IMG/VR virus record: IMGVR_UViG_3300024303_000011
From: a virus
Taxonomy: Duplodnaviria; Heunggongvirae; Uroviricota; Caudoviricetes
Direction: 5' to 3' (one strand)
DNA: 64,000 nucleotides
The notes beneath the pieces were generated by a model that saw only the letters and a list, made by a program, of their open reading frames with translations, made no database searches and was not told where the DNA came from. Made by a program: the position numbers and the translations under genes. Positions 1-12,692 of the stretch are shown piece by piece (the stretch's first letter is position 1; every line of letters begins with the position of its first letter).

Positions 1-1
1 A

Positions 2-91
2 ATTTTTCCTATCTTAAATGTTGAAGTAGGAACTCAACGAGAACCAGAGAGCATTGAAACTGTAGTTGAAGTTGAGTGTGTATTGAAATAA
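2..91 (+). CDS. 3' fragment of an upstream CDS (29 codons, truncated by window edge)
   Basis: Open frame from window start to TAA at 89-91; overlaps RBS of next gene. Confidence 0.25.
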   Translation: MFPILNVEVGTQREPESIETVVEVECVLK

Positions 92-102
92 GGAGGATAA
101 AT

Positions 103-978
103 ATGTGTAGGCCAACTTTGATTTTGCTCGTTGGCGTTCCCGGCGTTGGGAAGTCTACTTATGCAAAAAATTATATCAGCGAAGGTACAAAGACGTCGGT
201 ACATCTCTCTTCCGATAAGATCCGCGAGGAGCTGTATGGGAACGAGTCCATTCAAGGAGATCCGGCAGAGGTATTCTCTCTTATGCAGAAAAGAGCAGTA
301 GAGGCGCTCAAAGAAGGCCATGATGTTATATATGATGCAACGAATGTAACCCGTCGTGATAGAGCAAGCATTATTGGGATCTGCCCCAAGTTTGCTAAGA
401 TTGAGGCACATGTTATCTGGGCACCCATAGAGGAGTGCATTAAACGTGATTCTGCAAGAGATCGTACCGTTGGCAAAGCAGTGATCGACAAGATGCTAAA
501 AAGATTTCAGGCTCCTTATTATGACGAGGGTATTGATGAAATTAAAATTATTACACCGGACGGCCACAATGCCGTGAAGTATGAGGTGGATTGCTATGAA
601 GCAATGAATATTCCGCACGACAACCCGCATCATACTAAAGACATTGGGGATCATTGTTTTATGGCTGGAGCGTATTTAGAAAAAAGATGTAATGATATAG
701 ATCTGATTAGAGCCGCAAGAATACACGATATAGGCAAACCATACACAAAGGCTTTTATCGACTCTAATGGAAATTCTTGTGAGCATGCGCATTATTATCA
801 GCATCAGGCCGTCGGAGCGTGGATGTCTTATGGTTGCAATAATATTACGGTCTATTCTGCGTGGCTCATTTCTACGCATATGGAACCATTCTTCAATAGC
901 AAGTATTATAAGAATCTTCCAGAGTGTCTGAAATACAAGATTGATTTGCTGCACGAAGCCGATCTTAATGCACATTAA
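103..978 (+). CDS. P-loop NTP-kinase fused to HD-domain phosphohydrolase (polynucleotide kinase/phosphatase-like RNA end-healing candidate)
   Basis: AGGAGG RBS at 91-96 then ATG 103 (ORF track starts at 76). Walker A GVPGVGKST. C-terminal HD motif pattern H..HD(IHDIGKP)..H..H..D. Confidence 0.6.
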   Translation: MCRPTLILLVGVPGVGKSTYAKNYISEGTKTSVHLSSDKIREELYGNESIQGDPAEVFSLMQKRAVEALKEGHDVIYDATNVTRRDRASIIGICPKFAKIEAHVIWAPIEECIKRDSARDRTVGKAVIDKMLKRFQAPYYDEGIDEIKIITPDGHNAVKYEVDCYEAMNIPHDNPHHTKDIGDHCFMAGAYLEKRCNDIDLIRAARIHDIGKPYTKAFIDSNGNSCEHAHYYQHQAVGAWMSYGCNNITVYSAWLISTHMEPFFNSKYYKNLPECLKYKIDLLHEADLNAH

Positions 979-1025
979 ATAAAAAGTGTACAATAAATTC
1001 AATTAAAGTTTGGTTATTTCGTCAA

Positions 1026-1054
1026 TAGACAAGACAAAATGATTATGCTATAAT
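1026..1054 (+). promoter_or_regulatory. sigma70-like promoter P0 (TAGACA-N17-TATAAT) with ACAAAATGATT in spacer
   Basis: -35 1026-1031, -10 1049-1054; cassette near-identical to P5 at 16383-16411 (TTCGTCAAT..ACAAAATGATT..TATAAT). Confidence 0.5.
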
Positions 1055-1091
1055 ATATACACGGTTGGAGATCTTCTAGATGAATTGATCC

Positions 1092-1112
1092 AATTGTAAA
1101 CGAATTGTAAAC
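1092..1112 (+). repeat. tandem direct repeat (G)AATTGTAAAC x2, upstream element of promoter P1
   Basis: caattgtaaacgaattgtaaacg; related to 20-mer TGTTAATGAATTGTAAATAA found upstream of P2 and P3. Confidence 0.6.
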
Positions 1113-1127
1113 GATTGCAGAACCCAC

Positions 1128-1156
1128 TTGACAGACACAATCGCTTATGATATAAT
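1128..1156 (+). promoter_or_regulatory. sigma70-like promoter P1 (TTGACA-N17-TATAAT) driving tRNA/hairpin-RNA/Ro60 array
   Basis: Perfect consensus hexamers with 17-nt spacer; ACAGAATGATTC motif 20 nt downstream (1176-1187). Confidence 0.65.
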
Positions 1157-1196
1157 ATATACACGATGAACACGACAGAATGATTCATCGTGATAC

Positions 1197-1323
1197 GGGA
1201 CGGTAGCTCAGCGGACAGAGCAACGTAAACATCAACCAATGCGGTTTGACAAAATCGTATGCAGCAATTTTAATGATAAGCCTTATAAGCCGTAGGTCGC
1301 AAGTTCGAATCTTGCTCGTCCCA
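1197..1323 (+). tRNA. tRNA gene with 54-nt insertion in anticodon stem (between nt 29/30); mature anticodon UAU (Ile-like) if insert removed
   Basis: Acceptor GGGACGG/TCGTCCC, D-arm GCTC-AGCGGACA-GAGC, T-arm GCAAG-TTCGAAT-CTTGC, variable AGGTC. 5' exon ends ..AACG(1225), 3' resumes GC-CTTATAA-GCCGT at 1280 giving stem ACGGC/GCCGT. Insert 1226-1279 contains GCAGCAATTTTAA. Confidence 0.5.
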
Positions 1324-1331
1324 ACTAATAT

Positions 1332-1449
1332 GCACGGATAGCTCAGTCGGTAGAGCACAGTAATAACAGGGTTTAGCCATAAGCCCTAACAGCAACTTTA
1401 CAAATGCTTGAGGAGCCTGGTGTCGCTGGTTCAAGTCCAGCTCCGTGCA
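1332..1449 (+). tRNA. tRNA gene with 45-nt insertion between nt 29/30; mature anticodon loop TTGAGGA (anticodon GAG, class I body) if insert removed
   Basis: Acceptor GCACGGA/TCCGTGC, D-arm GCTC-AGTCGGTA-GAGC, T-arm GCTGG-TTCAAGT-CCAGC. 5' exon ..ACAG(1360), 3' resumes GC(1406)-TTGAGGA-GCCTG. Insert 1361-1405 contains AACAGCAACTTTAC. Confidence 0.45.
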
Positions 1450-1456
1450 ACAATAC

Positions 1457-1575
1457 AGGGAGATAGTCAAGTGGTAAGACAATAGACGTCAATAAATAGT
1501 CTTGCTAAAGAGTATTCAGCAATCATAGACAACCAATTCTATGTATCGGTGGTTCGAATCCATCTCTCCCTGCCA
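1457..1575 (+). tRNA. tRNA gene with ~44-nt insertion in anticodon loop (stem ATAGA/TCTAT intact); anticodon not resolvable; CCA encoded
   Basis: Acceptor AGGGAGA/TCTCCCT perfect, D-arm GTC-AAGTGGTAA-GAC, T-arm GGTGG-TTCGAAT-CCATC. Loop plus insert 1487-1537 contains TTCAGCAATCAT; ATAGAC direct repeat at both insert ends. Confidence 0.45.
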
Positions 1576-1579
1576 TCAT

Positions 1580-1643
1580 AAGGCACTAACAGCAAACTTA
1601 GATACATAATTCTTGCTATTGAAATTAGATGTAAAGGTGCCTT
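1580..1643 (+). ncRNA. hairpin RNA element A (7-bp stem AAGGCAC/GTGCCTT, 50-nt loop starting TAACAGCAAACTTAG)
   Basis: Inverted repeat read directly; loop motif shared with elements B-D and with tRNA inserts. Confidence 0.4.
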
Positions 1644-1652
1644 GAATTTTAA

Positions 1653-1741
1653 AAGACGCACACAGCAAATTTACTAAGGATAATAAATTTATTTTGTGAA
1701 TGAATTTTAGTGGGTTCAAATCCCACAAGTTTATGCGTCTT
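1653..1741 (+). ncRNA. hairpin RNA element B (stem AAGACGC/GCGTCTT; loop starts ACACAGCAAATTTAC; contains internal T-arm-like GTGGG-TTCAAAT-CCCAC)
   Basis: Inverted repeat plus tRNA T-arm mimic at 1710-1726; Y-RNA-like architecture. Confidence 0.4.
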
Positions 1742-1749
1742 GTTCAAAA

Positions 1750-1815
1750 GAGAGACCAACAGCAAACTTTATTTGGCTCCATAAAATCACTCTGCCCTAG
1801 AGAAAACGGTCTCTC
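1750..1815 (+). ncRNA. hairpin RNA element C (stem GAGAGACC/GGTCTCTC; loop starts AACAGCAAACTTTATTTGG)
   Basis: 8-bp inverted repeat with conserved loop motif. Confidence 0.4.
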
Positions 1816-1833
1816 GAACGTTAATTATATCTT

Positions 1834-1890
1834 AAGACACGCACAGCAATTTCAAGGAATAGACTTTTAATCTATAAACCTACGTGTCTT
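1834..1890 (+). ncRNA. hairpin RNA element D (stem AAGACACG/CGTGTCTT; loop starts CACAGCAATTTCAAGG); ends 37 nt before Ro60-like start
   Basis: 8-bp inverted repeat with conserved loop motif. Confidence 0.4.
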
Positions 1891-1926
1891 GGATTGATTA
1901 TAAATAATATTTTGGAGGAAATCAAA

Positions 1927-3465
1927 ATGGCATTTATGGATTCAATCAAAAATGAACTCAACAACGAGAAGCGGATCACCGAGAACGGTGCTGTGGGTTA
2001 TCGTACCACAGGTAAGGGTCTGCTGGATCTCAACTTTAGCGTGGCTTCACTGAGAAACGCATCGGAAGCAGATATCATCGATAAGTTCATTCATGCTTAT
2101 TTCGAAGATAAGCTCACTGCCACTAAGTGGCTGTTCTATGCAAGAGACGCAAGAGAGGGCCTTGGTGAACGTAGACTGTTCCGAGTTGTTATGGAAGAGT
2201 TTGCGGTACAGCAGCCTGAGATCGTCAAAGAACTGATTAAGTTTGTGCCCGAATATGGTCGCTGGGACGATCTGTGGTGCATGCTTGATACAGACATGCA
2301 GACCGATATTGTTGATATGGTTCAGAAACAGCTTCTTATTGATCTTAATAATATGAAGTTGAACAAGTCGGTTTCTCTTCTTGGAAAGTGGATGCCTAGT
2401 GAAAATGCATCTTCTGCCGAGACGAAGGCACGAGCAACACTCATCAGAAACAAGCTTGACATGACATCCAAGTATTATCGTAAGATGCTATCTAAGTTGC
2501 GCAAGTACATTGACGTCGTCGAGTGCAAGATGTCTGCTAAGCAGTGGAGTGAAATCGATTACGAGGCAGTTCCCAGTAGAGCTAACCTGATTTACAATAA
2601 CGCTTTCCTTCGTAATGATGAAGAGCGTCGCAGAGAATATCTTGGCAAGCTTGAAAAGGGCGAAGCTAAGATTAACGCCGGAGTTCTGTTCCCTCATGAC
2701 ATTGTTCACAAATATGGTCGTTCTTATGGTGTAGATGCGGCTCTTGAAGGCATGTGGAAAGCACTGCCGGATACTGTAAAGGGTTGCGGTAATACAATCG
2801 TTGTGGCTGATGGATCTGGCAGTATGCAGGTTCGAGTAGGCAATACTGATGTATCTGCTCTTGAAGTTGCTAATTCTCTTGCAATTTACTTTGCAGAGCA
2901 TTCTTCCGGTGAGTTTAAGAATAAGTATATTACGTTCAGTGAAAGGCCTCAGCTGGTTGACTTTAGCAAGGCAAAGAACCTTCGTGAGAAGCTTAATATT
3001 GCACGTCAGCATAACGAGGTAGCTAATACCAACATTGAAGCGGTGTTCGATCTGATCCTGTCTACGGCTATCAATAACCATATGCATCAGGAAGATATTC
3101 CCGTAAATATTCTGATCATCTCAGATATGGAATTTGATGGCTGTGCAACTACCAATACGGTTAGACGCAGTGGTTGGTATGCTTCATATGAGCGTCCCAC
3201 CGCAACTCTTTTTGAAACAATTGAGAAGAAGTATAGAGCTGCTGGATATAAGATCCCGCGTCTCGTGTTCTGGAACGTAAATTCTAGAACTGGCACCATT
3301 CCTGTTAAGGAAAATGATCTTGGCGTAGCTCTTGTCAGTGGCTTCTCCGTCAACATTGCTAAGATGGTTATGTCTGGAAAGACTGATCCTTACGAGTGTT
3401 TGCTTGAGGCTCTGAATGTAGAGCGGTATCAGCCTATCGAGGATGCCATTAAAGACATTTGTTAA
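1927..3465 (+). CDS. rsr: Ro60/Rsr-like RNA-binding protein (TROVE domain + C-terminal vWA domain)
   Basis: GGAGGAA RBS then ATG 1927. C-terminal vWA MIDAS VVADGSGSM and ILIISDMEFDG resemble Ro60 LLAVDVSASM and FIVFTDNETF. N-terminal region Ro60-like (ENGAVGYRTTG...ARDAREGLGERRLF). Length 512 aa. Confidence 0.55.
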   Translation: MAFMDSIKNELNNEKRITENGAVGYRTTGKGLLDLNFSVASLRNASEADIIDKFIHAYFEDKLTATKWLFYARDAREGLGERRLFRVVMEEFAVQQPEIVKELIKFVPEYGRWDDLWCMLDTDMQTDIVDMVQKQLLIDLNNMKLNKSVSLLGKWMPSENASSAETKARATLIRNKLDMTSKYYRKMLSKLRKYIDVVECKMSAKQWSEIDYEAVPSRANLIYNNAFLRNDEERRREYLGKLEKGEAKINAGVLFPHDIVHKYGRSYGVDAALEGMWKALPDTVKGCGNTIVVADGSGSMQVRVGNTDVSALEVANSLAIYFAEHSSGEFKNKYITFSERPQLVDFSKAKNLREKLNIARQHNEVANTNIEAVFDLILSTAINNHMHQEDIPVNILIISDMEFDGCATTNTVRRSGWYASYERPTATLFETIEKKYRAAGYKIPRLVFWNVNSRTGTIPVKENDLGVALVSGFSVNIAKMVMSGKTDPYECLLEALNVERYQPIEDAIKDIC

Positions 3466-3479
3466 TGAATTGTAAATAA
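3460..3479 (+). promoter_or_regulatory. conserved 20-mer TGTTAATGAATTGTAAATAA (upstream promoter element), identical copy at 7681-7700
   Basis: Exact 20/20 identity; both copies end 14 nt before a TTGACA -35 box. Confidence 0.55.
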
Positions 3480-3492
3480 AATACAATCCATA

Positions 3493-3521
3493 TTGACAAG
3501 AGTTTAACAATGTGATATAAT
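3493..3521 (+). promoter_or_regulatory. sigma70-like promoter P2 (TTGACA-N17-TATAAT) with downstream ACAGAATGATTG (3531-3542)
   Basis: Consensus hexamers; same cassette architecture as P3. Confidence 0.6.
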
Positions 3522-4025
3522 AATCACACAACAGAATGATTGAGTAGTGAGTACAGATCCATATCGAGTATGCCACAACGTACAAACTCAAGTAGGTATC
3601 GCCGTAATGCGTCTTATGTACAAAGACATCTTGAGAGTGGCAGAGATTAGCCCAACGATGTTGTAAGCAGGTAGCATAGGCGACATTTGGAGTCGTCGGA
3701 GCCGTTCGAATCGGATGAGGGTGACCACAAAGAAAATCTCTTAAAAGTACGAGATATGAAAAAGCAAGGTAAACATTAATGAACAGCCTGGTCAGCATAT
3801 GAGGATATTAATGATTAATTAATAATGAATTGACCGTTGGAAGTGGGTGCACACACGAATCCAACCCTTGCTCCTGTGGGTGAAAGTCCTACAGCTCAAT
3901 CTAATATGCCAGTTACGGCTTTGAGTGGGTTCGAGTCCCACCGCTGGTGACAAGCGGCGTATACAGCCGCAAGTTTAGTACTAAGTGTTATGGCTGTTGA
4001 ATTAGCTACTCGACGGCTATAATAT

Positions 4026-4101
4026 GTGCCTGTAGCTCAGATGGAAGAGCACATGACTTTTAATCATGGGGTCGGGAGTTCGAGCCTCCCCAGGCACACC
4101 A
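4026..4101 (+). tRNA. tRNA-Lys (anticodon UUU), CCA encoded
   Basis: Acceptor GTGCCTG/CAGGCAC, anticodon arm CATGA-CTTTTAA-TCATG, T-arm GGGAG-TTCGAGC-CTCCC. Confidence 0.8.
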
Positions 4102-4298
4102 CACGAGGCATGTATCTGCTAATGAGATTAAGTCTACGGATACTGATTTCAGAATGCCAAAAGAGCCTGTCATAGAAGATGCGGATACAGTTAATTCTAT
4201 GGTCCAAGCATACACGGAGTAGAGTGGGTTAACTTGCGATAATTCAAGCAGTATGCATAAGAGGATAGCAAGTGACAGCCGGAATAGACGGCAACAAT

Positions 4299-4431
4299 GC
4301 GGGATTGGTGGAATGGCAGACACCGGGGACTTGTTCGAGAGCCAGAGCGAAGTGAGGTCATCACTCACCTTGAGCACCAAAAATCCCCTGGTAGCAATAC
4401 CGTATCGGTTCGAGTCCGATATCCCGCACCA
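4299..4431 (+). tRNA. class II tRNA (long variable arm) with ~47-54 nt insertion in anticodon loop; anticodon UAA (Leu) or UGA (Ser) depending on junction; CCA encoded
   Basis: Acceptor GCGGGAT/ATCCCGC, anticodon stem GGGGA/TCCCC separated by 54 nt, variable hairpin GGTA-GCAA-TACC, T-arm ATCGG-TTCGAGT-CCGAT. Confidence 0.5.
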
Positions 4432-4433
4432 AA

Positions 4434-4552
4434 TAGTCACCAACAGCAACTAAATTGTCTTCGTCATAATTGAAGATGTAGCTTAGAGGTTAGAGCATCA
4501 GCCGTGAAAAGCTGAAGACGCTGGTTCGAATCCAGTCTTTAAACGGTGACTA
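4434..4552 (+). ncRNA. tRNA-like ncRNA element E: terminal stem TAGTCACC/GGTGACTA, bulge with AACAGCAACTAAATTG, D-arm, 8-nt anticodon-like loop (TCAGC-CGTGAAAA-GCTGA), T-arm GCTGG-TTCGAAT-CCAGT
   Basis: Does not fold as canonical tRNA (acceptor cannot pair) but retains D/T arms; Y-RNA (YrlA)-like layout. Confidence 0.4.
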
Positions 4553-4558
4553 GATTAT

Positions 4559-4633
4559 GGAGAATGAAGTGTAATGGTTTGCACTCCGGCCCTGGGAGCT
4601 GGAAGAGAGGTTCGATTCCTACATTTTCCACCA
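4559..4633 (+). tRNA. tRNA-Pro-like (anticodon UGG) with C33 and weak T-stem; CCA encoded
   Basis: Acceptor GGAGAAT/ATTTTCC, D-arm AGTG-TAATGGTTTG-CACT, anticodon arm CCGGC-CCTGGGA-GCTGG, T-loop TTCGATT. Confidence 0.4.
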
Positions 4634-4663
4634 TTATAAATATAATAAGGATCACGTATTAAA

Positions 4664-5122
4664 ATGGCACATTCAGGATACTCTGACGATTTTTGTATAG
4701 TATGTGGTAAGAGATTATCAAGAGGTCATTTATCACAATATTGTCAAATTCATTACAATGAACAAAGAAGAAAAGAAAAAATTGAAAAATGGCTAGAAAG
4801 CGGAGACACGGGAACGTCGGTAGACACAACAATTCGTGGTGTTATTAGGGATTATATATTAGAACAACAAAACAAATGTTGTGCAATATGTGGCATTAAA
4901 AATGAATGGAATGGAATGCAACTGAATTTTGTTCTTGATCATATTAATGGAGACGCATCTGAATCATCAAGAGACAATTTGCGTTTAATATGCCCAAACT
5001 GCGATAGTCAATTAGATACATATAAATCAAAAAATAAAAATTCTTCACGAACTAAAAGAAAAGAATTCTTAAAAAACTTAAATACATACTCAAAAAACAA
5101 AAACAATGGGGAGTTAGCCTAA
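4664..5122 (+). CDS. HNH homing-type endonuclease (Zn-ribbon + HNH)
   Basis: CIVCGK..C, VLDHINGD...NLRLICPNCD HNH motif; 3' end overlaps tRNA-Ser by 15 nt. Confidence 0.6.
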   Translation: MAHSGYSDDFCIVCGKRLSRGHLSQYCQIHYNEQRRKEKIEKWLESGDTGTSVDTTIRGVIRDYILEQQNKCCAICGIKNEWNGMQLNFVLDHINGDASESSRDNLRLICPNCDSQLDTYKSKNKNSSRTKRKEFLKNLNTYSKNKNNGELA

Positions 5123-5195
5123 TTGGTAAGGCAGCAGACTTGAAATCTGCCGTTGGCGAAAGCCATTCAGGGTTCGAGTCCCTGGCTCCCCGCCA
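5108..5195 (+). tRNA. tRNA-Ser (anticodon UGA), class II, CCA encoded
   Basis: Acceptor GGGGAGT/GCTCCCC, anticodon arm GCAGA-CTTGAAA-TCTGC, variable hairpin TGGC-GAAA-GCCA, T-arm CAGGG-TTCGAGT-CCCTG. Confidence 0.75.
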
Positions 5196-5199
5196 ATAT

Positions 5200-5286
5200 G
5201 CGAATGTGACGGAATAGGCAGACGAGGCAGACTCAAAATCTGTTGCTAGAAATAGCGTGTGAGTTCGAGTCTCACCATTCGCACCA
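5200..5286 (+). tRNA. tRNA-Leu (anticodon CAA), class II, CCA encoded
   Basis: Acceptor GCGAATG/CATTCGC, anticodon arm CAGA-CTCAAAA-TCTG, variable GCTAGAAATAGC, T-arm GTGAG-TTCGAGT-CTCAC. Confidence 0.75.
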
Positions 5287-5424
5287 GTCCCTCAGTATGG
5301 AGAGGTTTAAGAATAAGCCGATGACAAGGCAAGGAATAGTGCCATACCACTATTTGATAACCATTCATATTTCTGTATTGGTCTTACATCACATGTCCTA
5401 CAACATGCTCTTTGTGGGAGATCT

Positions 5425-5500
5425 GCGGTAGTAACTCAATTGGTAGAGTACCTGCCCTCCAAGCAGGATGTTGCGAGTTCGAGTCTCGTCTATCGCTCCA
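5425..5500 (+). tRNA. tRNA-Gly-like (anticodon UCC; loop CCTCCAA with C33), CCA encoded
   Basis: Acceptor GCGGTAG/CTATCGC, anticodon stem CCTGC/GCAGG, T-arm GCGAG-TTCGAGT-CTCGT. Alternative Trp reading rejected because a canonical Trp loop CTCCAAA exists at 6252. Confidence 0.5.
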
Positions 5501-5505
5501 ATTAT

Positions 5506-5580
5506 GCCCCTGTAGCTCAGTGGAAGAGCAACGCCCTTCTAAGGCGACGGTCAGGAGTTCGAATCTCTTCAGGGGTGCCA
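5506..5580 (+). tRNA. tRNA-Arg (anticodon UCU), CCA encoded
   Basis: Acceptor GCCCCTG/CAGGGGT, anticodon arm ACGCC-CTTCTAA-GGCGA, T-arm AGGAG-TTCGAAT-CTCTT. Confidence 0.75.
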
Positions 5581-5703
5581 GCGGAATATACGTCACTTCT
5601 GTCGTCGTTGCTCAGCGGATAGCCATTGGTAGTGGAGCGAGCAGTCATGACACACTGCGACCAATGGGTTAACAAGGAAGGCAATGGTTTATTCCGCTTC
5701 ATA

Positions 5704-5780
5704 TGGGACATTAGCTCAGCTGGTCAGAGCATCCGGCTCATAACCGGGCGGTCCAAAGTTCGAATCTTTGATGTCCCACC
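5704..5780 (+). tRNA. tRNA-Met/Ile2 (anticodon CAU), CCA encoded
   Basis: Acceptor GGGACAT/ATGTCCC, anticodon arm TCCGG-CTCATAA-CCGGG, T-arm CAAAG-TTCGAAT-CTTTG. Confidence 0.75.
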
Positions 5781-5784
5781 AATA

Positions 5785-5877
5785 CGGAGGAGTACCCAAG
5801 TAGGTGAAGGGGCGGGTTTGCTAAACCTGTAGGTCATCGCAAGGTGGCGCGTGGGTTCGAACCCCACCTCCTCCGCC
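5785..5877 (+). tRNA. tRNA-Ser (anticodon GCU), class II, CCA encoded
   Basis: Acceptor GGAGGAG/CTCCTCC, anticodon arm CGGGT-TTGCTAA-ACCTG, long variable arm, T-arm GTGGG-TTCGAAC-CCCAC. Confidence 0.75.
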
Positions 5878-6015
5878 AGAAGAGCATCTGTCTTATGCTC
5901 TGCTAAAAGCATAGTGAAGGCGATATATAACCATAGACTTTGGATAGTTATGATACGGTTAGAGACTATCGCTATTATTTATCTTAGCGCTGAGATTTTT
6001 AGTAGTCCGTTTTAT

Positions 6016-6090
6016 TGGGGTGTAGCCAAGCGGTAAGGCAGCGGACTTTGACTCCGCCATTCGCATGTTCGAATCATGCCATCCCAGCCA
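6016..6090 (+). tRNA. tRNA-Gln (anticodon UUG), U1-A72, CCA encoded
   Basis: Acceptor TGGGGTG/CATCCCA, anticodon arm GCGGA-CTTTGAC-TCCGC, T-arm GCATG-TTCGAAT-CATGC. Confidence 0.7.
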
Positions 6091-6251
6091 GTACGGTGGT
6101 CTTTGGTAGTAATCACGCACCCGTTAAAGAGCCAATTGACGAATTGGCAAAGTGGAAACTACATGCCATAACTTCCAAGTGTACATAAGAAGTTAAACGG
6201 TAACTACGGTTTGAGAGGATCTTGCGTAGTAAAACCCAATCCTCAGTTTAT

Positions 6252-6325
6252 AGGAGCATAGTTCAATGGTAGAATAAGAGTCTCCAAAACTCCTGATCGG
6301 GGTTCGACTCCCTGTGCTCCTGCCA
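6252..6325 (+). tRNA. tRNA-Trp (anticodon CCA; loop CTCCAAA), CCA encoded
   Basis: Acceptor AGGAGCA/TGCTCCT, D-arm GTTC-AATGGTA-GAAT, T-arm CGGGG-TTCGACT-CCCTG. Confidence 0.65.
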
Positions 6326-6352
6326 TTAAAATTTATTCAAAGGAGAAGAGAC

Positions 6353-6466
6353 ATGGAAAAGATGGCCCTAGAAAATCGTATCGCTCTTTTGCGAACACGC
6401 GGCACCAATAATGGAAACATTGTTCGCAAACTACAGCGTAGACTACGAAAGCTCGAAAAGGAGTGA
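6353..6466 (+). CDS. small basic protein (37 aa)
   Basis: AAGGAGAAG RBS, ATG 6353; not in ORF track (<60 aa). Confidence 0.3.
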   Translation: MEKMALENRIALLRTRGTNNGNIVRKLQRRLRKLEKE

Positions 6467-6471
6467 TAAAC

Positions 6472-6576
6472 ATGCCAATTAAAGGTGTTATATTACTGTT
6501 TGCCGCAGCAATGGTTATCGCATTTTTTTATCGCAAAGAAATTTATAATTGGATTGAAAAGAATTTTAAAAATTAA
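6472..6576 (+). CDS. small single-TM membrane peptide (34 aa)
   Basis: Hydrophobic core VILLFAAAMVIAFF; immediately upstream of SPFH gene. Confidence 0.3.
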   Translation: MPIKGVILLFAAAMVIAFFYRKEIYNWIEKNFKN

Positions 6577-6587
6577 GGAGATTTAAT

Positions 6588-7634
6588 ATGAGCAAGTTTG
6601 TAGCAGCCCTTTTGGCTATGGTTATTCTGGTTACTGGCGGACTGATTATTTATGGCGCAACTCATGAGACGATTCCTGCTGGCTACGTTGGTTATGTTTA
6701 TGACCGTAACGCACGAGACGACGATAATGTGATTCCCGGAACATCCGTAATTAACGAAGCAAGAACAGGTCGAATTTCAATTAACCCAATCACTCAGGAT
6801 GTACTTACCTATCCCACTACTATTATTAGCTGCAACTGGACTGGTCTTGCAGAAGGTGATAACAAGAAGGATATGAGCATGCAGATTGCATCTCAGGAAG
6901 GCAAGAACATCGATGCTGATATTTATATTAGCGTAAGACCTCTCGACATCGAGAAAATCATTAAGTCTTTCGGTACAAAGTCCTTCGATTCCATTGTTGA
7001 TAACGATATCTATGGTCTTACTAAGGGTAAACTCTCTTCCGTGTCTCAGGCATATTCCGTTTATGATATCCAGTCTTCTAGAGTAGAGATCCAGTCTGAG
7101 GTATTTAACATCCTTTCCAGCACTCTAAACGACGTATATGGTGTTGAACTTGTCCGCCTTGAGATTGGTACTCTTATTCTCCCTGAAGATATCCAGGCTA
7201 AGATTGACCAGAAGACTCAGGCACAGAATGAGGTTGAACTCGCTAAGCTTGAGCGCGAGCGTCAGAATGAAGTGAATCAGCAGATCGTCGATCAGCAGAA
7301 GGCACAGTCTGAGCGTGAGATGATTCAGCGCCAGGCAGAAGCAGACGCGGCTGCATATGAAAAGCAGAAAGAAGCAGAAGCTCTTCTGGCAGTCTCCGAG
7401 GCAAATGTAAAGATCGCAGAGCAGGAGCTTGAGATCGCAAAGCTTGAGAAAGAAGCAGAACTCGAAAAGCAGAAGGGTTACACCACGGAGTACTTTAAGG
7501 ATAAGGAACTTGACGTAAAGATGGCTGCAGTAGAAGCAATCAACCCGACCGTGAAGACTATTATTACATCCGGTGAAGGAGAGGGCTTCGGTGCGCTCGT
7601 TGGTATCAAAGAAGTTCTTAATAGTATCGGCTAA
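6588..7634 (+). CDS. SPFH/band-7 (stomatin/prohibitin/flotillin-like) membrane protein with C-terminal coiled coil
   Basis: N-terminal TM, SPFH-like core, Glu/Lys/Gln-rich coiled coil (ELAKLERERQNE...). Confidence 0.55.
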   Translation: MSKFVAALLAMVILVTGGLIIYGATHETIPAGYVGYVYDRNARDDDNVIPGTSVINEARTGRISINPITQDVLTYPTTIISCNWTGLAEGDNKKDMSMQIASQEGKNIDADIYISVRPLDIEKIIKSFGTKSFDSIVDNDIYGLTKGKLSSVSQAYSVYDIQSSRVEIQSEVFNILSSTLNDVYGVELVRLEIGTLILPEDIQAKIDQKTQAQNEVELAKLERERQNEVNQQIVDQQKAQSEREMIQRQAEADAAAYEKQKEAEALLAVSEANVKIAEQELEIAKLEKEAELEKQKGYTTEYFKDKELDVKMAAVEAINPTVKTIITSGEGEGFGALVGIKEVLNSIG

Positions 7635-7648
7635 TACAACCACTAATG

Positions 7649-7683
7649 AAAGGAGAGTTTAACATGGCTCTCCTTTTATTTGT
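7649..7683 (+). terminator. rho-independent terminator (AAAGGAGAG...CTCTCCTTT + T-rich tail)
   Basis: 9-bp stem, 10-nt loop, followed by TATTTGTT. Confidence 0.6.
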
Positions 7684-7713
7684 TAATGAATTGTAAATAA
7701 TGGAATATAGTTA

Positions 7714-7741
7714 TTGACAAAGCTAAGATTTTAAGTATAAT
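7714..7741 (+). promoter_or_regulatory. sigma70-like promoter P3 (TTGACA-N16-TATAAT) with upstream 20-mer (7681-7700) and downstream ACAAAATGATTG (7751-7762)
   Basis: Same cassette as P2 with identical 14-nt spacing from the 20-mer. Confidence 0.6.
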
Positions 7742-7755
7742 ATATACAGTACAAA

Positions 7756-8805
7756 ATGATTGAAAGGTTTAAACGAATGACAATCAGTGAAATAAAATCC
7801 ATGTTAAAAACACCGGAATATGGATTCCTAAAAACGAATGAGCATCTTGGGCCTAATGTTATTTTACTAACGCTTGGTGGCAGCTACGCATATGGAACAA
7901 ATGTTGAAACATCAGATGTTGATATTCGTGGTTGCGCTTTGAACTCAAAAGAGGAAATTTTGACGAATAAAAATTTCGAACAGTTTGTCAATGAAGAAAC
8001 AGATACAACGATCTATAGCTTTAATAAGCTTATCAGTCTGCTTTCTAACGTAAACCCAAATACTATTGAACTGCTTGGATGTAAGCCCGAACATTATGTA
8101 TATCTTTCTCCAGTAGGTAAAGAGCTGCTGGAACATAAACATCTGTTTTTGTCTAAAAAGTGTGTACATTCTTTTGGCGGATATGCGAACGCACAGCTCA
8201 GACGTCTAGACAACAAAGCAGCGAGACTTGTTACGCAGACAGAACAAGAACATCATATTTTAAAAAGTATCGAAAATGCCTCATATACCTTCAAAGAGCA
8301 TTACTTCAAATATGACGATGAGGCCATCAAGCTATATATCGATAAATCAGAGTCTGAAGAATATGATACTGAAATCTTTATGGATGTAAATCTTAAGCAT
8401 TATCCTTTGCGGGACTACAAAGGAATGTGGTCTGTAATGCACAATGTTGTTAAAGAATACGGCAAGATCGGAAAGCGCAATTCTCATGCAATAGAGCATG
8501 GCAAACTTGGTAAGCACATGATGCATTTGGTCAGGCTGTATCTAATGTGTCTTGATATTCTTAACGATGGCGAAATTATTACATACAGAGAAAAAGATCA
8601 CGACTTCCTTATGAGTATTCGCAATGGTAAATATCTAGATGACAACAGACAGCCAACGCCTGAGTTCTTTGATATTGTTGATGACTTGGAGGCTAAGCTG
8701 GATGCGGCAAAACATAGTACGGATCTACCAGATAATCCTGATTATAAAAAGATCAATGAGTTCGTTGCTTCTGTGAATGAAAGAATTGTTAGAGGTGAAG
8801 TATAA
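7756..8805 (+). CDS. Pol-beta superfamily nucleotidyltransferase (GS...DxD), function unknown
   Basis: LTLGGSYAYGTNVETSDVDIRG NTase signature. ATG 7756 lies inside the conserved promoter-proximal motif, so true start may be ATG 7777 (MTISEIKS). Confidence 0.5.
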   Translation: MIERFKRMTISEIKSMLKTPEYGFLKTNEHLGPNVILLTLGGSYAYGTNVETSDVDIRGCALNSKEEILTNKNFEQFVNEETDTTIYSFNKLISLLSNVNPNTIELLGCKPEHYVYLSPVGKELLEHKHLFLSKKCVHSFGGYANAQLRRLDNKAARLVTQTEQEHHILKSIENASYTFKEHYFKYDDEAIKLYIDKSESEEYDTEIFMDVNLKHYPLRDYKGMWSVMHNVVKEYGKIGKRNSHAIEHGKLGKHMMHLVRLYLMCLDILNDGEIITYREKDHDFLMSIRNGKYLDDNRQPTPEFFDIVDDLEAKLDAAKHSTDLPDNPDYKKINEFVASVNERIVRGEV

Positions 8806-9192: not shown

Positions 9193-9741
9193 ATGAAAAC
9201 TTTAATTGTAATTGACATGCAGAATGACTTTATCACAGGTTCTCTTGGAACCAAAGAAGCACAGGCTATTGTACCTAACGTAAAAAAGAAGATCGATGAG
9301 TATCTGGAGCGTGGCGACGAAGTTATTTTTACCAGAGACACCCACGATGAGGACTACCTAAATACCAACGAAGGAAAGCATCTTCCTGTTAAGCATTGCA
9401 TCTTTGGCACCGAGGGTTGGGAGATCCACCACGATCTTGATGTTAAGGATTGCGAACATATTGACAAACATACTTTTGGTTGGCAGTTCTGGACTTCTAC
9501 TGAGTCTGCTTACGAAAATGACGAGGATGATACGTATTACTTCCGAGATCTTGAAGACATTGAGATCGTCGGTCTGTGTACGGATATCTGCGTGGTATCC
9601 AACGCGTTGATCCTTAAAGCAAATTATCCTTGGGCAAATATTACTGTGGACGCAAGCTGTTGCGCTAGTGTAACTCCTGAGAAGCACAAGGCAGCACTTG
9701 AGGTTATGAAGAGCTGTCAGATCAATGTAATCGGAGAGTAA
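9193..9741 (+). CDS. pncA: nicotinamidase (isochorismatase family)
   Basis: VIDMQNDF N-terminal motif, GLCTDICV catalytic Cys context. Confidence 0.65.
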   Translation: MKTLIVIDMQNDFITGSLGTKEAQAIVPNVKKKIDEYLERGDEVIFTRDTHDEDYLNTNEGKHLPVKHCIFGTEGWEIHHDLDVKDCEHIDKHTFGWQFWTSTESAYENDEDDTYYFRDLEDIEIVGLCTDICVVSNALILKANYPWANITVDASCCASVTPEKHKAALEVMKSCQINVIGE

Positions 9742-9743
9742 TA

Positions 9744-10274
9744 ATGAATACTTTTCAGAAGTTTATTGGCCATGCGCGAACCGTGCATAAGCATCGTGCA
9801 ATGGTGCGAAAACTATGTTTCAAATGCGGCCTCTATTGGCAGGGATTGACGCACGATCTCTCTAAGTATCATCCCGTTGAATTCTGGAATGGAGTCAAAT
9901 ACTACACTGGAACAGCATCTCCGCATCACGGGGAACGTAAAGACAAAGGATACTCAGATGCGTGGGTTCATCATCATAACAGAAACAAACACCATGTAGA
10001 GTATTGGCAGGATATTAATCCTAACACTGGTGTAAGTGTGCCTATCGAGATGCCTGAGAAGTATCTAAAAGAGATGATCTGTGATCGTGTAGCAGCTTCT
10101 ATGACATATCTAGGTGATAAATACTATAGTGCTGCACCTCTTGAATATTATGAAAGTCATAAGTACGAAAATAGATGGCATCATATGACACAAGAAAAGG
10201 TTGAGTATTATCTCGATAAAATTGCAAGACACGGATTTGAAAAAATTATGAGAGACATAGACCAAATGATATGA
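9744..10274 (+). CDS. His-rich hypothetical protein (possible metal-binding)
   Basis: HHGERKD...HHHNRNKHH cluster; no recognisable family. Confidence 0.3.
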   Translation: MNTFQKFIGHARTVHKHRAMVRKLCFKCGLYWQGLTHDLSKYHPVEFWNGVKYYTGTASPHHGERKDKGYSDAWVHHHNRNKHHVEYWQDINPNTGVSVPIEMPEKYLKEMICDRVAASMTYLGDKYYSAAPLEYYESHKYENRWHHMTQEKVEYYLDKIARHGFEKIMRDIDQMI

Positions 10275-10493
10275 CACTCATTGATATACTTTACTACATG
10301 GCTTATGCTACATTTGCCATAATTGGTATTGGCGTATTTATAGAATACTTAAAAAATATTTAAGGGAAATAATTAATTATGGAAACAATTATACTTGCTT
10401 ATATTGGACTTATGGGCGTTCTTGGTCTTGGCTTTATCCTTTTCGGTATTGTAGCAATCAAAGAATTGAATAAATGAAAGGAAATAATTGATT

Positions 10494-11717: not shown

Positions 11718-11719
11718 TA

Positions 11720-11953
11720 ATGTGCATTGAAACAGTTGGTGAATTAAAACAAATGCTTAAAGAGCTTAACCTTGCGGATGATGCTCCAATTATTATGACA
11801 AGAGAATCATTAAGAGAGGCTCCCTATAGTGTTCCCGTGCGCCCGCTTTACATTTATACTGGCGTTATTGATTCAAAATATAATCAGTATGAACGACGAC
11901 TTGAAGCTTGTTATTCTGCTGATGGAAAATATGGATTGATGGTACTTGGATAA
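11720..11953 (+). CDS. hypothetical protein
   Basis: ORF with tight coupling to pncB stop. Confidence 0.3.
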   Translation: MCIETVGELKQMLKELNLADDAPIIMTRESLREAPYSVPVRPLYIYTGVIDSKYNQYERRLEACYSADGKYGLMVLG

Positions 11954-12120
11954 TGAATAAATGGATAAATAAGTTTCTTTGGTGGTTTCTTCATATTACT
12001 AAAAGAAATTGTAGGCATTGTTCTGTCTTTGATGAAGAAACTAACAAATGTAAAATATTTAATTGTTGTTTTCGCCCAGATGATGATTTTTGTATGCGTT
12101 GGATAAAGAAGGAGTAAAAA

Positions 12121-12687: not shown

Positions 12688-12692
12688 AGAAA

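What the first reader, a model, noticed from the sequence alone, without database searches (positions are those of the whole stretch)
4299..4552. Second locus with the same features: class II tRNA with a loop insertion, followed by a tRNA-like element wrapped in an extended terminal helix with an ACAGCAA bulge
Seen in sequence: the tRNA at 4299-4431 has its anticodon stem GGGGA/TCCCC separated by 54 nt, and the insert contains its own hairpin GTGAG-GTCATCA-CTCAC. It is immediately followed (4434-4552) by an element with an 8-bp outer stem TAGTCACC/GGTGACTA, a 5' bulge AACAGCAACTAAATTG..., an inner helix TTGAAGA/TCTTTAA, a D-arm, an 8-nt anticodon-like loop and a canonical T-arm. This stacked-helix plus tRNA-body layout is what Y RNA (YrlA-type) mimics look like, and it carries the same ACAGCAA motif as the Ro60-proximal array 3 kb away.
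Basis: partly seen in the sequence, partly recalled or inferred. Interest (0 to 1): 0.6.

Follow-up and report, generated by a model that had tools for sequence, protein, structure and literature searches.

The report
tRNA-like intron beside Y-like RNA
A gut phage carries a leucine tRNA gene split in its anticodon by a 47-base insert that is shaped like the top half of a tRNA, apparently an undescribed kind of tRNA intron found in many phage tRNAs, and next to it lies a tRNA-shaped small RNA of a family that sits beside a Ro60-like protein gene.

Summary

(A) 4299-4431 is a tRNA-Leu(UAA) gene with a 47-nt insert (4333-4379) exactly between U34 and A35. The insert is a tRNA "top half": a 7-bp acceptor-like stem stacked on a 5-bp stem with a 7-nt loop, then A-CCA. 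I found 24 distinct inserts of this build in the anticodon loops of phage tRNA-Leu, Lys, Gln, Pro and Ile. All sit at 34|35 or 35|36, show strong covariation, and leave a normal tRNA when removed. A close relative lacks the Leu insert but has one in tRNA-Lys. The best reading is a new class of tRNA-like intron. I infer that RNase P cuts it at the 5' end, that a cut follows the CCA, and that a phage RNA ligase encoded about 2.6 kb upstream of the window start rejoins the exons.

(B) 4434-4552 belongs to a family of RNAs with a closing helix followed by ACAGCAA. The family clusters beside a DUF2828 gene whose predicted fold matches Ro60, so the element is Y-RNA-like in function. It fails every test for YrlA membership.

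There are no expression or biochemical data.

The parts
4299..4332 (+). Exon 1 of tRNA-Leu(UAA): acceptor 5' strand, D arm, anticodon stem 5' strand, and loop C32 U33 U34.
   Evidence: Alignment to uninterrupted tRNA-Leu(UAA) genes. ARAGORN with introns allowed and on the gene with the insert removed.
4333..4379 (+). 47-nt tRNA-like intervening sequence. Parts: acceptor-like stem GTTCGAG (4333-4339) with CTTGAGC (4369-4375); linker AGCCAGAGCGAA (4340-4351); 5-bp stem GTGAG (4352-4356) with CTCAC (4364-4368); 7-nt loop GTCATCA (4357-4363); discriminator A (4376); CCA (4377-4379).
   Evidence: In 13 family members 153 of 156 stem cells are paired, against 102.5 +/- 5.6 when partners are swapped. 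A scan on structure alone recovers it, and removing it restores tRNA-Leu. The fold agrees.
4380..4431 (+). Exon 2 of tRNA-Leu(UAA): A35 A36 A37 A38, anticodon stem 3' strand, long variable arm, T arm, acceptor 3' strand, and encoded ACCA.
4434..4441 (+). 5' strand of the outer closing helix (TAGTCACC). It pairs with 4545-4552.
   Evidence: 100% paired in A4. Helices differ across the family, with compensating changes.
4442..4449 (+). AACAGCAA motif directly 3' of the helix strand. Proposed binding site for the Ro60-like protein.
   Evidence: Invariant in A3 and A4. Linked to a closing helix in 56% of occurrences against 10% for controls. Family members lie a median 276 nt from the DUF2828 gene.
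4457..4477 (+). Local hairpin GTCTTCG (4457-4463) with TGAAGAT (4471-4477).
   Evidence: 97.6% paired, with 5 of 7 pairs showing compensatory change. The rival helix is 66.7% paired with none.
4478..4536 (+). tRNA-like body. D stem 4481-4484 with 4493-4496. Anticodon-like stem 4498-4502 with 4511-4515, and 8-nt loop CGUGAAAA (4503-4510). T arm 4520-4536.
   Evidence: Rfam tRNA 46.8 bits at 4472-4541. Homologues match the tRNA model only at positions 5-66 or 7-64, so no acceptor stem is matched. Pair counts.
4537..4552 (+). Conserved A/U tail CTTTAAAC (4537-4544), which can pair with TAAA at 4451-4454, followed by the 3' strand of the outer helix GGTGACTA (4545-4552).
   Evidence: Sequences. 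The A/U pairing is seen in all eight close homologues, but it is A/U only and so cannot be tested by covariation (inference).
1927..3465 (+). Context: DUF2828/DUF7788 protein with a Ro60-like fold, the presumed partner of the ACAGCAA RNAs.
   Evidence: Pfam. AF2 model with pLDDT 91.5. Foldseek top 13 hits are Ro60/TROVE.
3493..3521 (+). Context: a 12/12 sigma-70 promoter with extended -10, the likely start of the transcript that carries both features.
   Evidence: This is a consensus match only.
4026..4101 (+). Context: uninterrupted tRNA-Lys(UUU). The relative L032 carries a 76-nt nested tRNA-like insert at U34|U35 of the orthologous gene.
103..978 (+). Context: polynucleotide-kinase-like protein (AAA_33 kinase plus a weak, below-cut-off Pfam HD match). 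It belongs to an RNA-repair cassette whose RNA ligase lies about 2.6 kb upstream of the window start.

Best explanation
The region holds two adjacent but independent RNA genes on one phage transcript.

(A) 4299-4431 encodes a working tRNA-Leu(UAA) interrupted between U34 and A35 by a 47-nt intron that mimics the top half of a tRNA. The intron has a 7-bp acceptor stem stacked on a 5-bp stem-loop, then A-CCA.

Proposed pathway:
- The host tRNA-end machinery treats the intron as a pre-tRNA.
- RNase P cuts at U4332|G4333, leaving a 3'-OH on exon 1.
- An RNase Z/BN-type activity cuts after the CCA at A4379|A4380, leaving a 5'-phosphate on exon 2.
- The halves stay paired as a nicked tRNA.
- An ATP-dependent RNA ligase seals the nick. 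The candidate is the phage ligase encoded about 2.6 kb upstream of the window start.
- The anticodon loop CUUAAAA is restored.

Shown:
- The architecture, the covariation, the exact restoration of a tRNA, and the recurrence in five tRNA species.
- Presence or absence of the insert between close relatives.
- The presence of a ligase gene.

Inferred: that the insert is excised at all, the enzymes involved, and the chemistry of the ends.

(B) 4434-4552 is a small RNA of a phage family defined by a closing helix followed by ACAGCAA. It most likely binds the neighbouring Ro60-fold DUF2828 protein through that module, and displays a tRNA-like body with a tRNA-Phe-like loop enlarged to 8 nt. That body would serve as a tether or decoy for tRNA-binding enzymes or nucleases. 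This makes it a functional analogue of Y RNA. Processing of the flanking tRNAs would release it with nearly flush ends.
For: (A)
- The insert sits exactly at U34|A35.
- In 13 family members the two stems are paired in 153 of 156 cells, against 102.5 +/- 5.6 (maximum 127 in 5000) when 3' strands are swapped between sequences. Every acceptor pair shows 2-5 pair types.
- The metagenome and genome scans fixed only CTT...AAAATCCC. Even so, every structured insert ended in N-CCA with a 6-7 bp terminal helix, and the chance hits did not.
- A scan on structure alone, followed by removing each candidate and running ARAGORN, gave 24 distinct nested elements. All lie at 34|35 (20 cases) or 35|36 (4 cases) of tRNA-Leu UAA, Lys UUU, Gln UUG, Pro UGG or Ile UAU.
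- In those 24, the base before the insert is U in 23, the first insert base is G in 19, and the 3' end is NCCA in 21 and NCAA in 3. From established knowledge, these are the known determinants of bacterial RNase P substrates.
- All 12 tRNA-Leu genes with the insert removed are called tRNA-Leu(taa), so the exons are kept as a working tRNA.
- The window and L032 tRNA-Lys genes differ by a clean 76-nt presence/absence.
- UUA makes up 32% of Leu codons in the structural genes against 12% in early genes, so this tRNA is needed.
- An RNA ligase (phrog_968, E = 1.4e-63) lies just upstream, alongside a Macro-domain protein (which also matches a PHROG phosphatase family), PARP, a nucleotidyltransferase and a kinase.

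(B)
- Helix plus ACAGCAA elements recur beside the DUF2828 gene in all 12 viral relatives, with different, compensating helices.
- The helix association is 56% against 10% for controls.
- Density is 3.2 per 10 kb in loci with the gene against 0.29 elsewhere, and the median distance from the gene is 276 nt.
- The protein has a Ro60 fold.
- Permuted siblings give full-length, sub-threshold YrlA matches.
- The structure is supported by covariation.
- The element starts 2 nt after the CCA of tRNA-Leu and ends 5 nt before the next tRNA-like gene.
Against: - There are no RNA-level data. Neither the spliced tRNA nor the free 47-mer has been seen.
- Cleavage exactly after an encoded CCA is known for only some RNase Z/BN enzymes (from memory). 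The host is unknown, and three inserts end in CAA.
- The loop of the short inserts (GKCAKCA) is not a canonical T loop.
- The ligase call rests on a PHROG family name. Pfam RNA_ligase scores 24 bits, below its cut-off of 27. No ligase was found in the short flanks of the other intron-bearing loci.
- The repair cassette (kinase, phosphatase, Macro, PARP) suits breaks with 2',3'-cyclic-phosphate and 5'-OH ends better than breaks made by RNase P or Z. A different endonuclease may therefore be involved.
- For (B), protein binding is inferred only from gene neighbourhood. The motif differs from every known Ro60 site. The enrichment figures are biased by how the loci were collected.
Confidence: 0.55

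Rival explanations
1. The 47-nt insert is never removed. The gene makes a non-decoding tRNA-shaped scaffold that displays a CCA-ended minihelix where the anticodon would be. It might act as a decoy for anticodon nucleases, RNase P or CCA-directed toxins, as the long tRNA-like RNAs beside the Ro-like gene may do.
For: - The same phage has three tRNA-like RNAs with large, probably permanent inserts in the anticodon arm (1196-1572).
- No splicing enzyme has been demonstrated.
- Most short inserts have a GGCAGCA loop that recalls the CAGCAA motif.
Against: - Removing the insert at the ends defined by the minihelix restores a perfect 7-nt anticodon loop and a callable tRNA in all 24 cases. This holds even where the junction shifts to 35|36.
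- Alleles with and without the insert have nearly identical exons.
- The hosts are five different decoding tRNAs.
- The window encodes no other tRNA-Leu(UAA), although UUA is used heavily in late genes.
Confidence: 0.2
2. The insert is removed, but not by RNase P and RNase Z. A phage or host endonuclease that leaves 2',3'-cyclic-phosphate and 5'-OH ends makes the cuts. The phage kinase/phosphatase and ligase then heal and seal the break, as in T4 tRNA repair or fungal tRNA splicing. The tRNA-like shape would serve folding or recognition.
For: - The adjacent cassette is a heal-and-seal set: a kinase (AAA_33) with a weak, below-cut-off Pfam HD match (20.3 bits against a cut-off of 22), RlaP nucleotidyltransferases, a Macro-domain protein that also matches a PHROG phosphatase family, PARP, a ligase, and NAD salvage genes.
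- Three inserts end in CAA rather than CCA.
Against: - No candidate endonuclease was identified.
- There is no bulge-helix-bulge motif at the junctions (read directly from the sequence and the fold).
- The conserved U(-1), G(+1), 7+5 bp stack and NCCA are exactly what RNase P reads, and have no obvious use otherwise.
Confidence: 0.15
3. The wrapped element 4434-4552 is a true tRNA precursor, either a frameshift or suppressor tRNA with an 8-nt anticodon loop or the phage's tRNA-Phe. Its flanking helix would be only a processing signal.
For: - Rfam scores the body as tRNA at 46.8 bits.
- In the window and in L032 an acceptor-like pairing, TTGAAGA or TTGGAGA with TCTTTAA, is possible.
- The L032 copy has a 7-nt loop with anticodon UUA.
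- The loops resemble the tRNA-Phe loop CUGAAAA.
Against: - The acceptor pairing is not conserved: 66.7% paired and no covariation. Its 5' strand covaries with an upstream hairpin instead.
- Rfam aligns the homologues only from model positions 5-7 to 64-66.
- There is no CCA, although every bona fide tRNA of this phage encodes one.
- Position 1-72 would be U-A.
- L008 has a normal tRNA-Phe as well as a wrapper.
Confidence: 0.07
4. The tRNA-Leu gene is a pseudogene disrupted by a decayed remnant of a group I intron or by a stray DNA insertion.
For: - The site is the classical group I intron site of tRNA-Leu(UAA).
- L034 has an insert of about 900 nt with an HNH ORF at the same place.
- L032 and L025 have uninterrupted genes.
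Against: - The insert family is conserved and covaries.
- It occurs in many phage lineages and in five tRNA species.
- The exons remain intact tRNAs.
- No group I match was found, and the insert ends in A, not G.
Confidence: 0.03

Closest known systems
Group I intron of bacterial and plastid tRNA-Leu(UAA)
   Same: Same host tRNA and same insertion point, between U34 and A35. It also varies in presence between related genomes.
   Different: Group I introns are at least about 200 nt, have the P3-P8 catalytic core, end in G and splice themselves. This insert is 47 nt, has no core (no Rfam match), ends in CCA and cannot plausibly self-splice.
Archaeal and eukaryotic protein-spliced tRNA introns (bulge-helix-bulge, EndA/Sen endonuclease, RtcB or Trl1 ligase)
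   Same: Short introns in the anticodon loop that need protein enzymes and a ligase. Some archaeal introns also carry a functional small RNA.
   Different: There is no bulge-helix-bulge motif. The position is 34|35 or 35|36, not 37|38. Bacteria and phages are not known to have the splicing endonuclease. Recognition here would be through tRNA mimicry by the intron itself.
tRNA-like processing signals cut by RNase P and RNase Z (MALAT1 mascRNA, plant tRNA-snoRNA transcripts, mitochondrial tRNA punctuation)
   Same: A tRNA-shaped module recruits the tRNA-end enzymes to cut a longer RNA at defined points (established knowledge).
   Different: In those cases nothing is rejoined. Here the module lies inside another tRNA, and the flanks must be ligated to give a working anticodon loop.
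Phage T4 tRNA repair (Pnkp plus Rnl1 sealing a broken tRNA-Lys anticodon loop)
   Same: A phage kinase/phosphatase and an RNA ligase act on a nick in the anticodon loop. The same kinds of genes flank this locus.
   Different: T4 repairs damage made by a host nuclease. Here the break would be programmed by the gene's own structure.
YrlA / bacterial Y RNA with Ro60 (Rsr) (Rfam RF02553; PMC4201824)
   Same: A small RNA encoded beside a Ro60-fold protein gene. It has a terminal helix with a conserved 5'-strand motif plus a tRNA-like domain, and several different copies occur per locus. Permuted siblings give weak full-length YrlA matches.
   Different: The motif is ACAGCAA, not GNCGAAN0-1G. The arms are in native tRNA order, with an anticodon-like arm kept and an extra hairpin, rather than T arm, closed acceptor, D arm. 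There is no YrlA match. Pfam classifies the partner as DUF2828/DUF7788, not TROVE.

Membership tests
Canonical tRNA (tRNA-Leu, class II) | A cloverleaf with a 7-nt anticodon loop that standard tRNA finders detect. | tested here: not met
   As encoded, default ARAGORN and Rfam at gathering score miss it. The loop region is 54 nt.
Canonical tRNA (tRNA-Leu, class II) | After removal of the intervening sequence: a complete cloverleaf, long variable arm, anticodon UAA and a CCA end. | tested here: met
   ARAGORN calls tRNA-Leu(taa) for the window gene and 11 relatives once the insert is removed. Alignment to uninterrupted genes agrees.
Group I intron | A conserved catalytic core that matches Rfam Intron_gpI. 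| tested here: not met
   No group I match in 1-8000 at E<=10. At 47 nt the insert is too short for the core.
Group I intron | A terminal G at the 3' end of the intron. | tested here: not met
   The insert ends in ...ACCA (4376-4379).
Archaeal/eukaryal protein-spliced tRNA intron | A bulge-helix-bulge motif at the two splice sites. | tested here: not met
   The fold and the sequence show a 3-nt 5' segment and an 8-nt 3' segment flanking a 7-bp helix, not two 3-nt bulges around a 4-bp helix.
Bacterial RNase P substrate (minihelix type) | A 12-bp coaxial stack of acceptor (7 bp) plus T stem (5 bp), with a 3' NCCA, U at -1 and G at +1. | tested here: met
   The window insert has all of these features. 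Across 24 family members: U(-1) in 23, G(+1) in 19, NCCA in 21. Stems are 153/156 paired. The list of determinants comes from established knowledge, not from a tool.
Bacterial RNase P substrate (minihelix type) | Actual cleavage by RNase P at the predicted site. | not testable with these tools
   This needs an in vitro cleavage assay or 5'-end mapping.
YrlA (Rfam RF02553) | A covariance-model score at or above the gathering score of 69 bits. | tested here: not met
   No YrlA match at 4434-4552 even at E<=10. Permuted siblings reach only 31-34 bits.
YrlA (Rfam RF02553) | The GNCGAAN0-1G motif in the 5' strand, the presumed Rsr site (PMC4201824). | tested here: not met
   It is absent from 4434-4552 (read). 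The conserved motif is AACAGCAA.
YrlA (Rfam RF02553) | A permuted tRNA-like domain: T arm, closed acceptor stem-loop, D arm, with the RNA ends in the protein-binding stem. | tested here: not met
   The order here is hairpin, D arm, anticodon-like arm, T arm.
YrlA (Rfam RF02553) | Encoded next to a Ro60 orthologue. | tested here: inconclusive
   The gene 1 kb upstream is DUF2828/DUF7788 by sequence and has no PDB sequence hit. Its predicted fold matches Ro60 over its full length, with E of 8e-8 and TM of 0.45-0.59.
Helix + ACAGCAA RNAs of DUF2828 phages (family defined here) | A closing helix of 7-10 bp immediately followed on the 5' strand by (N0-2)ACAGCAA, located near a DUF2828 gene. | tested here: met
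   The window element has an 8-bp helix plus AACAGCAA, 969 nt after the gene's end.
Helix + ACAGCAA RNAs of DUF2828 phages (family defined here) | Binding of the DUF2828 protein. | not testable with these tools
   This needs a pull-down or gel-shift experiment.

The most novel reading that the evidence does not exclude
Phages of gut and rumen bacteria carry a previously unrecognised class of tRNA intron. It is a miniature tRNA, or tRNA top half, nested in the anticodon loop of U34 tRNAs (Leu, Lys, Gln, Pro, Ile). The cell's own tRNA-end enzymes (RNase P and an RNase Z-type activity) excise it, and a phage RNA ligase rejoins the exons. This would be a third route to tRNA splicing, alongside self-splicing and the bulge-helix-bulge endonuclease. 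Because related phages differ in which tRNA carries one, the element would also be mobile. The excised CCA-ended minihelix may have a role of its own.
Probability: 0.35. Interest if true: 0.9.

Novelty: new variant of a known kind. Interest (0 to 1): 0.8.

Why it matters
Bacterial tRNA introns are thought to be only self-splicing group I or II ribozymes, and short protein-spliced tRNA introns are treated as an archaeal and eukaryotic trait. If a short intron in phage tRNAs recruits RNase P and RNase Z by mimicking a tRNA and depends on a repair ligase, three things follow:
- There would be a new splicing route built entirely from housekeeping tRNA enzymes.
- Phage RNA ligases would have a programmed substrate, apart from damage repair.
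- tRNA finders would be systematically missing phage tRNAs (this gene is missed by default).

Such an intron could also make supply of a tRNA that late genes use heavily depend on phage-encoded functions. Separately, the ACAGCAA RNAs give the large, uncharacterised DUF2828 branch of Ro60-like proteins a candidate RNA partner and a sequence motif that can be tested directly.

Tried and rejected
- BLAST of 4150-4700 against GenBank phages found only 50-nt tRNA-Leu matches and no relatives.
- An exact 38-mer of the wrapped element is absent from IMG/VR.
- Contigs encoding exactly the same HNH or Ro-like protein are 100% identical in this region, so they give no variation.
- Most of the more than 200 hits from the metagenome and genome pattern scans were ordinary tRNA-Leu genes that happen to be followed by AAAATCCC. 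I filtered them out.
- The MAFFT alignment of the short inserts (A2) staggered the 5' strands, so I parsed the modules from the 3' end instead.
- Is the ~900-nt insert in L034 a group I intron? There is no Rfam match, so this stays open.
- Known small self-cleaving ribozymes as the insert: no Rfam match at E<=10, and no hammerhead or HDV-like core on inspection.
- A pseudoknot between the CCAGUG linker and the GGCAGCA loop: no consistent register, so I dropped it.
- RNA ligase inside the window: none found, only an NAD-dependent DNA ligase at 13803-15758. One was found just upstream of the window instead.
- RNA ligase in the short flanks of other intron-bearing loci: none found. This is uninformative.
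- Sequence search of the Ro-like protein against PDB found nothing. A fold search was needed.
- Literature searches for DUF2828, tRNA-like introns and nested tRNAs found no description of either feature. The library lacks most subscription journals.
Full report
**Setting**

The window is part of a phage genome of about 170 kb, recovered at 100% identity in more than 20 metagenome contigs. Its left end is an RNA-repair and tRNA island. It contains:
- a polynucleotide-kinase-like protein (103-978);
- a DUF2828/DUF7788 protein (1927-3465);
- an HNH endonuclease (4664-5122);
- a Band-7 protein and an RlaP nucleotidyltransferase;
- nine ordinary tRNAs.

Two perfect sigma-70 promoters, at 1128-1156 and 3493-3521, precede two stretches of non-coding RNA genes. 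Just upstream of the window the same contig encodes an RNA ligase (phrog_968, E = 1.4e-63; Pfam RNA_ligase 24 bits, below its cut-off), a Macro-domain protein (which also matches a PHROG phosphatase family), a PARP-domain protein and a second RlaP-like enzyme.

**Checking the observation**

The tRNA at 4299-4431 is missed by default ARAGORN and by Rfam at gathering score. It aligns to uninterrupted tRNA-Leu(UAA) genes of related phages with a single 47-nt gap. The minimum-energy fold shows the host cloverleaf and the nested helices together.

The element at 4434-4552 has the 8-bp outer helix and the AACAGCAA motif, and its body scores 46.8 bits as tRNA.

**What the tRNA insert is**

The 47 nt (4333-4379) read as follows:
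- a 7-bp stem, GTTCGAG/CTTGAGC;
- a 12-nt linker;
- a 5-bp stem, GTGAG/CTCAC, with a 7-nt loop;
- then A-CCA.

The two stems are contiguous on the 3' strand. This is the topology of the acceptor and T-arm "top half" of a tRNA.

Relatives show that this is a family.
- A phage with a 77%-identical Ro-like protein (L037) has a 69-nt insert at the same site. That insert has its own acceptor stem, a canonical T loop and C-CCA.
- Pattern scans of viral, metagenome and genome collections fixed only the flanks CTT...AAAATCCC. They returned many trivial hits. They also returned more than a dozen distinct structured inserts, all ending in N-CCA with a 6-7 bp terminal helix.
- In 13 members the two stems are paired in 153 of 156 cells. 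When 3' strands are exchanged between sequences the figure is 102.5 +/- 5.6. Every acceptor pair shows two to five pair types.

I then dropped all assumptions about the flanks.
- I deleted each candidate in silico and asked ARAGORN whether a tRNA now spanned the junction.
- This gave 24 distinct nested elements of 45-76 nt.
- All lie in anticodon loops: 20 between positions 34 and 35, and 4 between 35 and 36.
- The host genes are tRNA-Leu(UAA), Lys(UUU), Gln(UUG), Pro(UGG) and Ile(UAU).
- The base before the insert is U in 23 of 24, the first base is G in 19, and the end is NCCA in 21 and NCAA in 3.
- Single phages carry up to four such genes (L119).

The longer inserts are complete miniature tRNAs. 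Rfam scores one of them as a tRNA in its own right (36.5 bits).

Presence is polymorphic between close relatives. L032, whose Ro-like protein is 80% identical, has an uninterrupted tRNA-Leu. Its tRNA-Lys carries a 76-nt nested element that is cleanly absent from the window's tRNA-Lys at 4026-4101.

**How the tRNA gene most likely works**

The exons are maintained as a working tRNA: 12 of 12 genes with the insert removed are called tRNA-Leu(taa). The window encodes no other tRNA-Leu(UAA). UUA makes up 32% of leucine codons in the structural genes against 12% in the early genes. A 47-nt insert between the first and second anticodon bases is incompatible with decoding, so it should be removed.

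The conserved features are U at -1, G at +1, a 12-bp stack and 3' NCCA. From established knowledge, these are the determinants that bacterial RNase P reads in minihelix substrates. I therefore infer three steps:
- RNase P cuts at 4332|4333.
- An RNase Z/BN-type activity cuts after the CCA.
- The two halves, held together as a nicked tRNA with 3'-OH and 5'-phosphate ends, are sealed by an ATP-dependent RNA ligase such as the one encoded just upstream.

The cut after the CCA is the weakest step. The heal-and-seal character of the neighbouring genes leaves room for a different endonuclease.

None of this has been observed at the RNA level.

**What the wrapped element is**

A closing helix followed at once by (N)ACAGCAA recurs next to the DUF2828 gene in all 12 viral relatives. 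The helix sequences differ and compensate. The interiors range from simple hairpins to tRNA-like bodies.

The link between motif and helix is far above chance: 48 of 85 occurrences, against 10% for permuted 7-mers. The elements lie a median 276 nt from the gene. The sampling of loci biases that figure.

The protein has no sequence match to solved structures. A confident model (pLDDT 91.5) matches full-length Ro60 structures as its top 13 hits.

Among family members with a T arm there are two layouts.
- One is permuted: T arm, closed acceptor hairpin, D arm. These give full-length but sub-threshold matches to Rfam YrlA (31-34 bits).
- The other keeps native tRNA order. The window element belongs to this group.

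For six close homologues of the window element:
- The outer helix, D, anticodon-like and T stems are supported.
- A local hairpin at 4457-4477 is supported, with compensatory change at 5 of 7 pairs.

The anticodon-like loops of this group resemble the tRNA-Phe loop CUGAAAA, often with one extra base (CGUGAAAA here). The L032 copy has UUUUAAA instead.

The element begins 2 nt after the CCA of tRNA-Leu and ends 5 nt before the next tRNA-like gene. Processing of its neighbours would therefore release it.

The most economical reading is a functional analogue of a Y RNA. The helix-ACAGCAA module would bind the Ro60-fold protein, and the tRNA-like body would engage a tRNA-binding enzyme or nuclease. 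It is not a member of YrlA by any defining test.

**Comparison with known systems, and novelty**

The insert shares its site with the group I intron of tRNA-Leu(UAA), but it has no ribozyme core. It shares its size and its dependence on proteins with archaeal and eukaryotic introns, but it has no bulge-helix-bulge motif. The use of tRNA mimicry to recruit RNase P and RNase Z is known from mascRNA and similar cases, but those involve no religation.

Full-text searches found no description of tRNA-like introns or nested tRNAs in phage tRNAs, and none of RNAs associated with DUF2828. The library is incomplete, so prior description elsewhere cannot be excluded.

I rate the finding as a new variant of a known kind. 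The tRNA intron is the known kind, and the recognition principle would be new. Interest is high and depends on experimental confirmation.

Noticed in passing
window 3530-3960: A non-coding stretch of about 430 nt lies directly after a perfect sigma-70 promoter. It is 77% identical in L032 6750-7160 and ends in a T-arm-like hairpin with a weak match to the tmRNA 3' end (3925-3941, 13 bits). No Rfam family matches, and ARAGORN does not call a tmRNA.
   Followed up: no
window 4558-4630: An odd tRNA-like gene sits right after the wrapped element. Its acceptor pairing is 8-9 bp and its T stem is short. It scores 32 bits as Rfam tRNA and 38 bits as tRNA-Sec (below the cut-off of 47). Its loop is CCUGGGA and it has an encoded CCA. 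ARAGORN does not call it. The syntenic gene in L025 and L034 is a normal tRNA-Trp(CCA).
   Followed up: partly
window 1196-1572: Three long tRNA-like RNAs (116-129 nt) have normal acceptor, D and T arms, but the anticodon arm is replaced by 45-60 nt carrying CAGCAA. In 1332-1449 this is a hairpin followed by AACAGCAA. Pairs of such RNAs are conserved upstream of the DUF2828 gene in relatives (L001, L002, L009, L032, L037).
   Followed up: partly
window 1579-1890: Four consecutive hairpin-type RNAs with a closing helix plus ACAGCAA lie immediately upstream of the Ro60-like gene. Each has a different closing helix.
   Followed up: partly
L032 8239-8390 versus window 4026-4101: The orthologous tRNA-Lys(UUU) of the closest long relative carries a 76-nt complete tRNA-like insert at U34|U35. 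The window gene is uninterrupted. The reverse holds for tRNA-Leu. This suggests the nested elements are gained and lost, or are mobile.
   Followed up: yes
L034 2203-3240: The tRNA-Leu(UAA) of this relative has an insert of about 900 nt at the same 34|35 site. It encodes an HNH_3 endonuclease and ends in G, so it may be a group I intron. No Rfam group I match was found.
   Followed up: partly
L275 5867-9808 (about 4.0 to 0.1 kb upstream of window position 1): The RNA-repair cassette continues upstream of the window: an RNA ligase (phrog_968), a Macro-domain protein that also matches a PHROG phosphatase family, a PARP-domain protein and a second RlaP-like nucleotidyltransferase. All are in the same orientation as the RNA genes.
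   Followed up: partly
L032 8682-8802: The homologue of the wrapped element has a normal 7-nt loop, UUUUAAA (anticodon UUA, like an ochre suppressor), instead of the 8-nt CGUGAAAA.
   Followed up: no
L003 5513-5576; L034 3866-3959: There are above-threshold Rfam matches to RAGATH-18 (67 bits), in the position of a long tRNA-like RNA upstream of the DUF2828 gene, and to drum RNA (43.7 bits) within a tRNA array.
   Followed up: no
window 9193-13469 and 24832-26772: A set of NAD salvage genes is present (isochorismatase/nicotinamidase-like, NAPRTase, a cytidylyltransferase-like protein, NAD synthase), and there is a large serine recombinase. UUA is used nearly three times more often in the minus-strand structural genes than in the plus-strand early genes.
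   Followed up: partly
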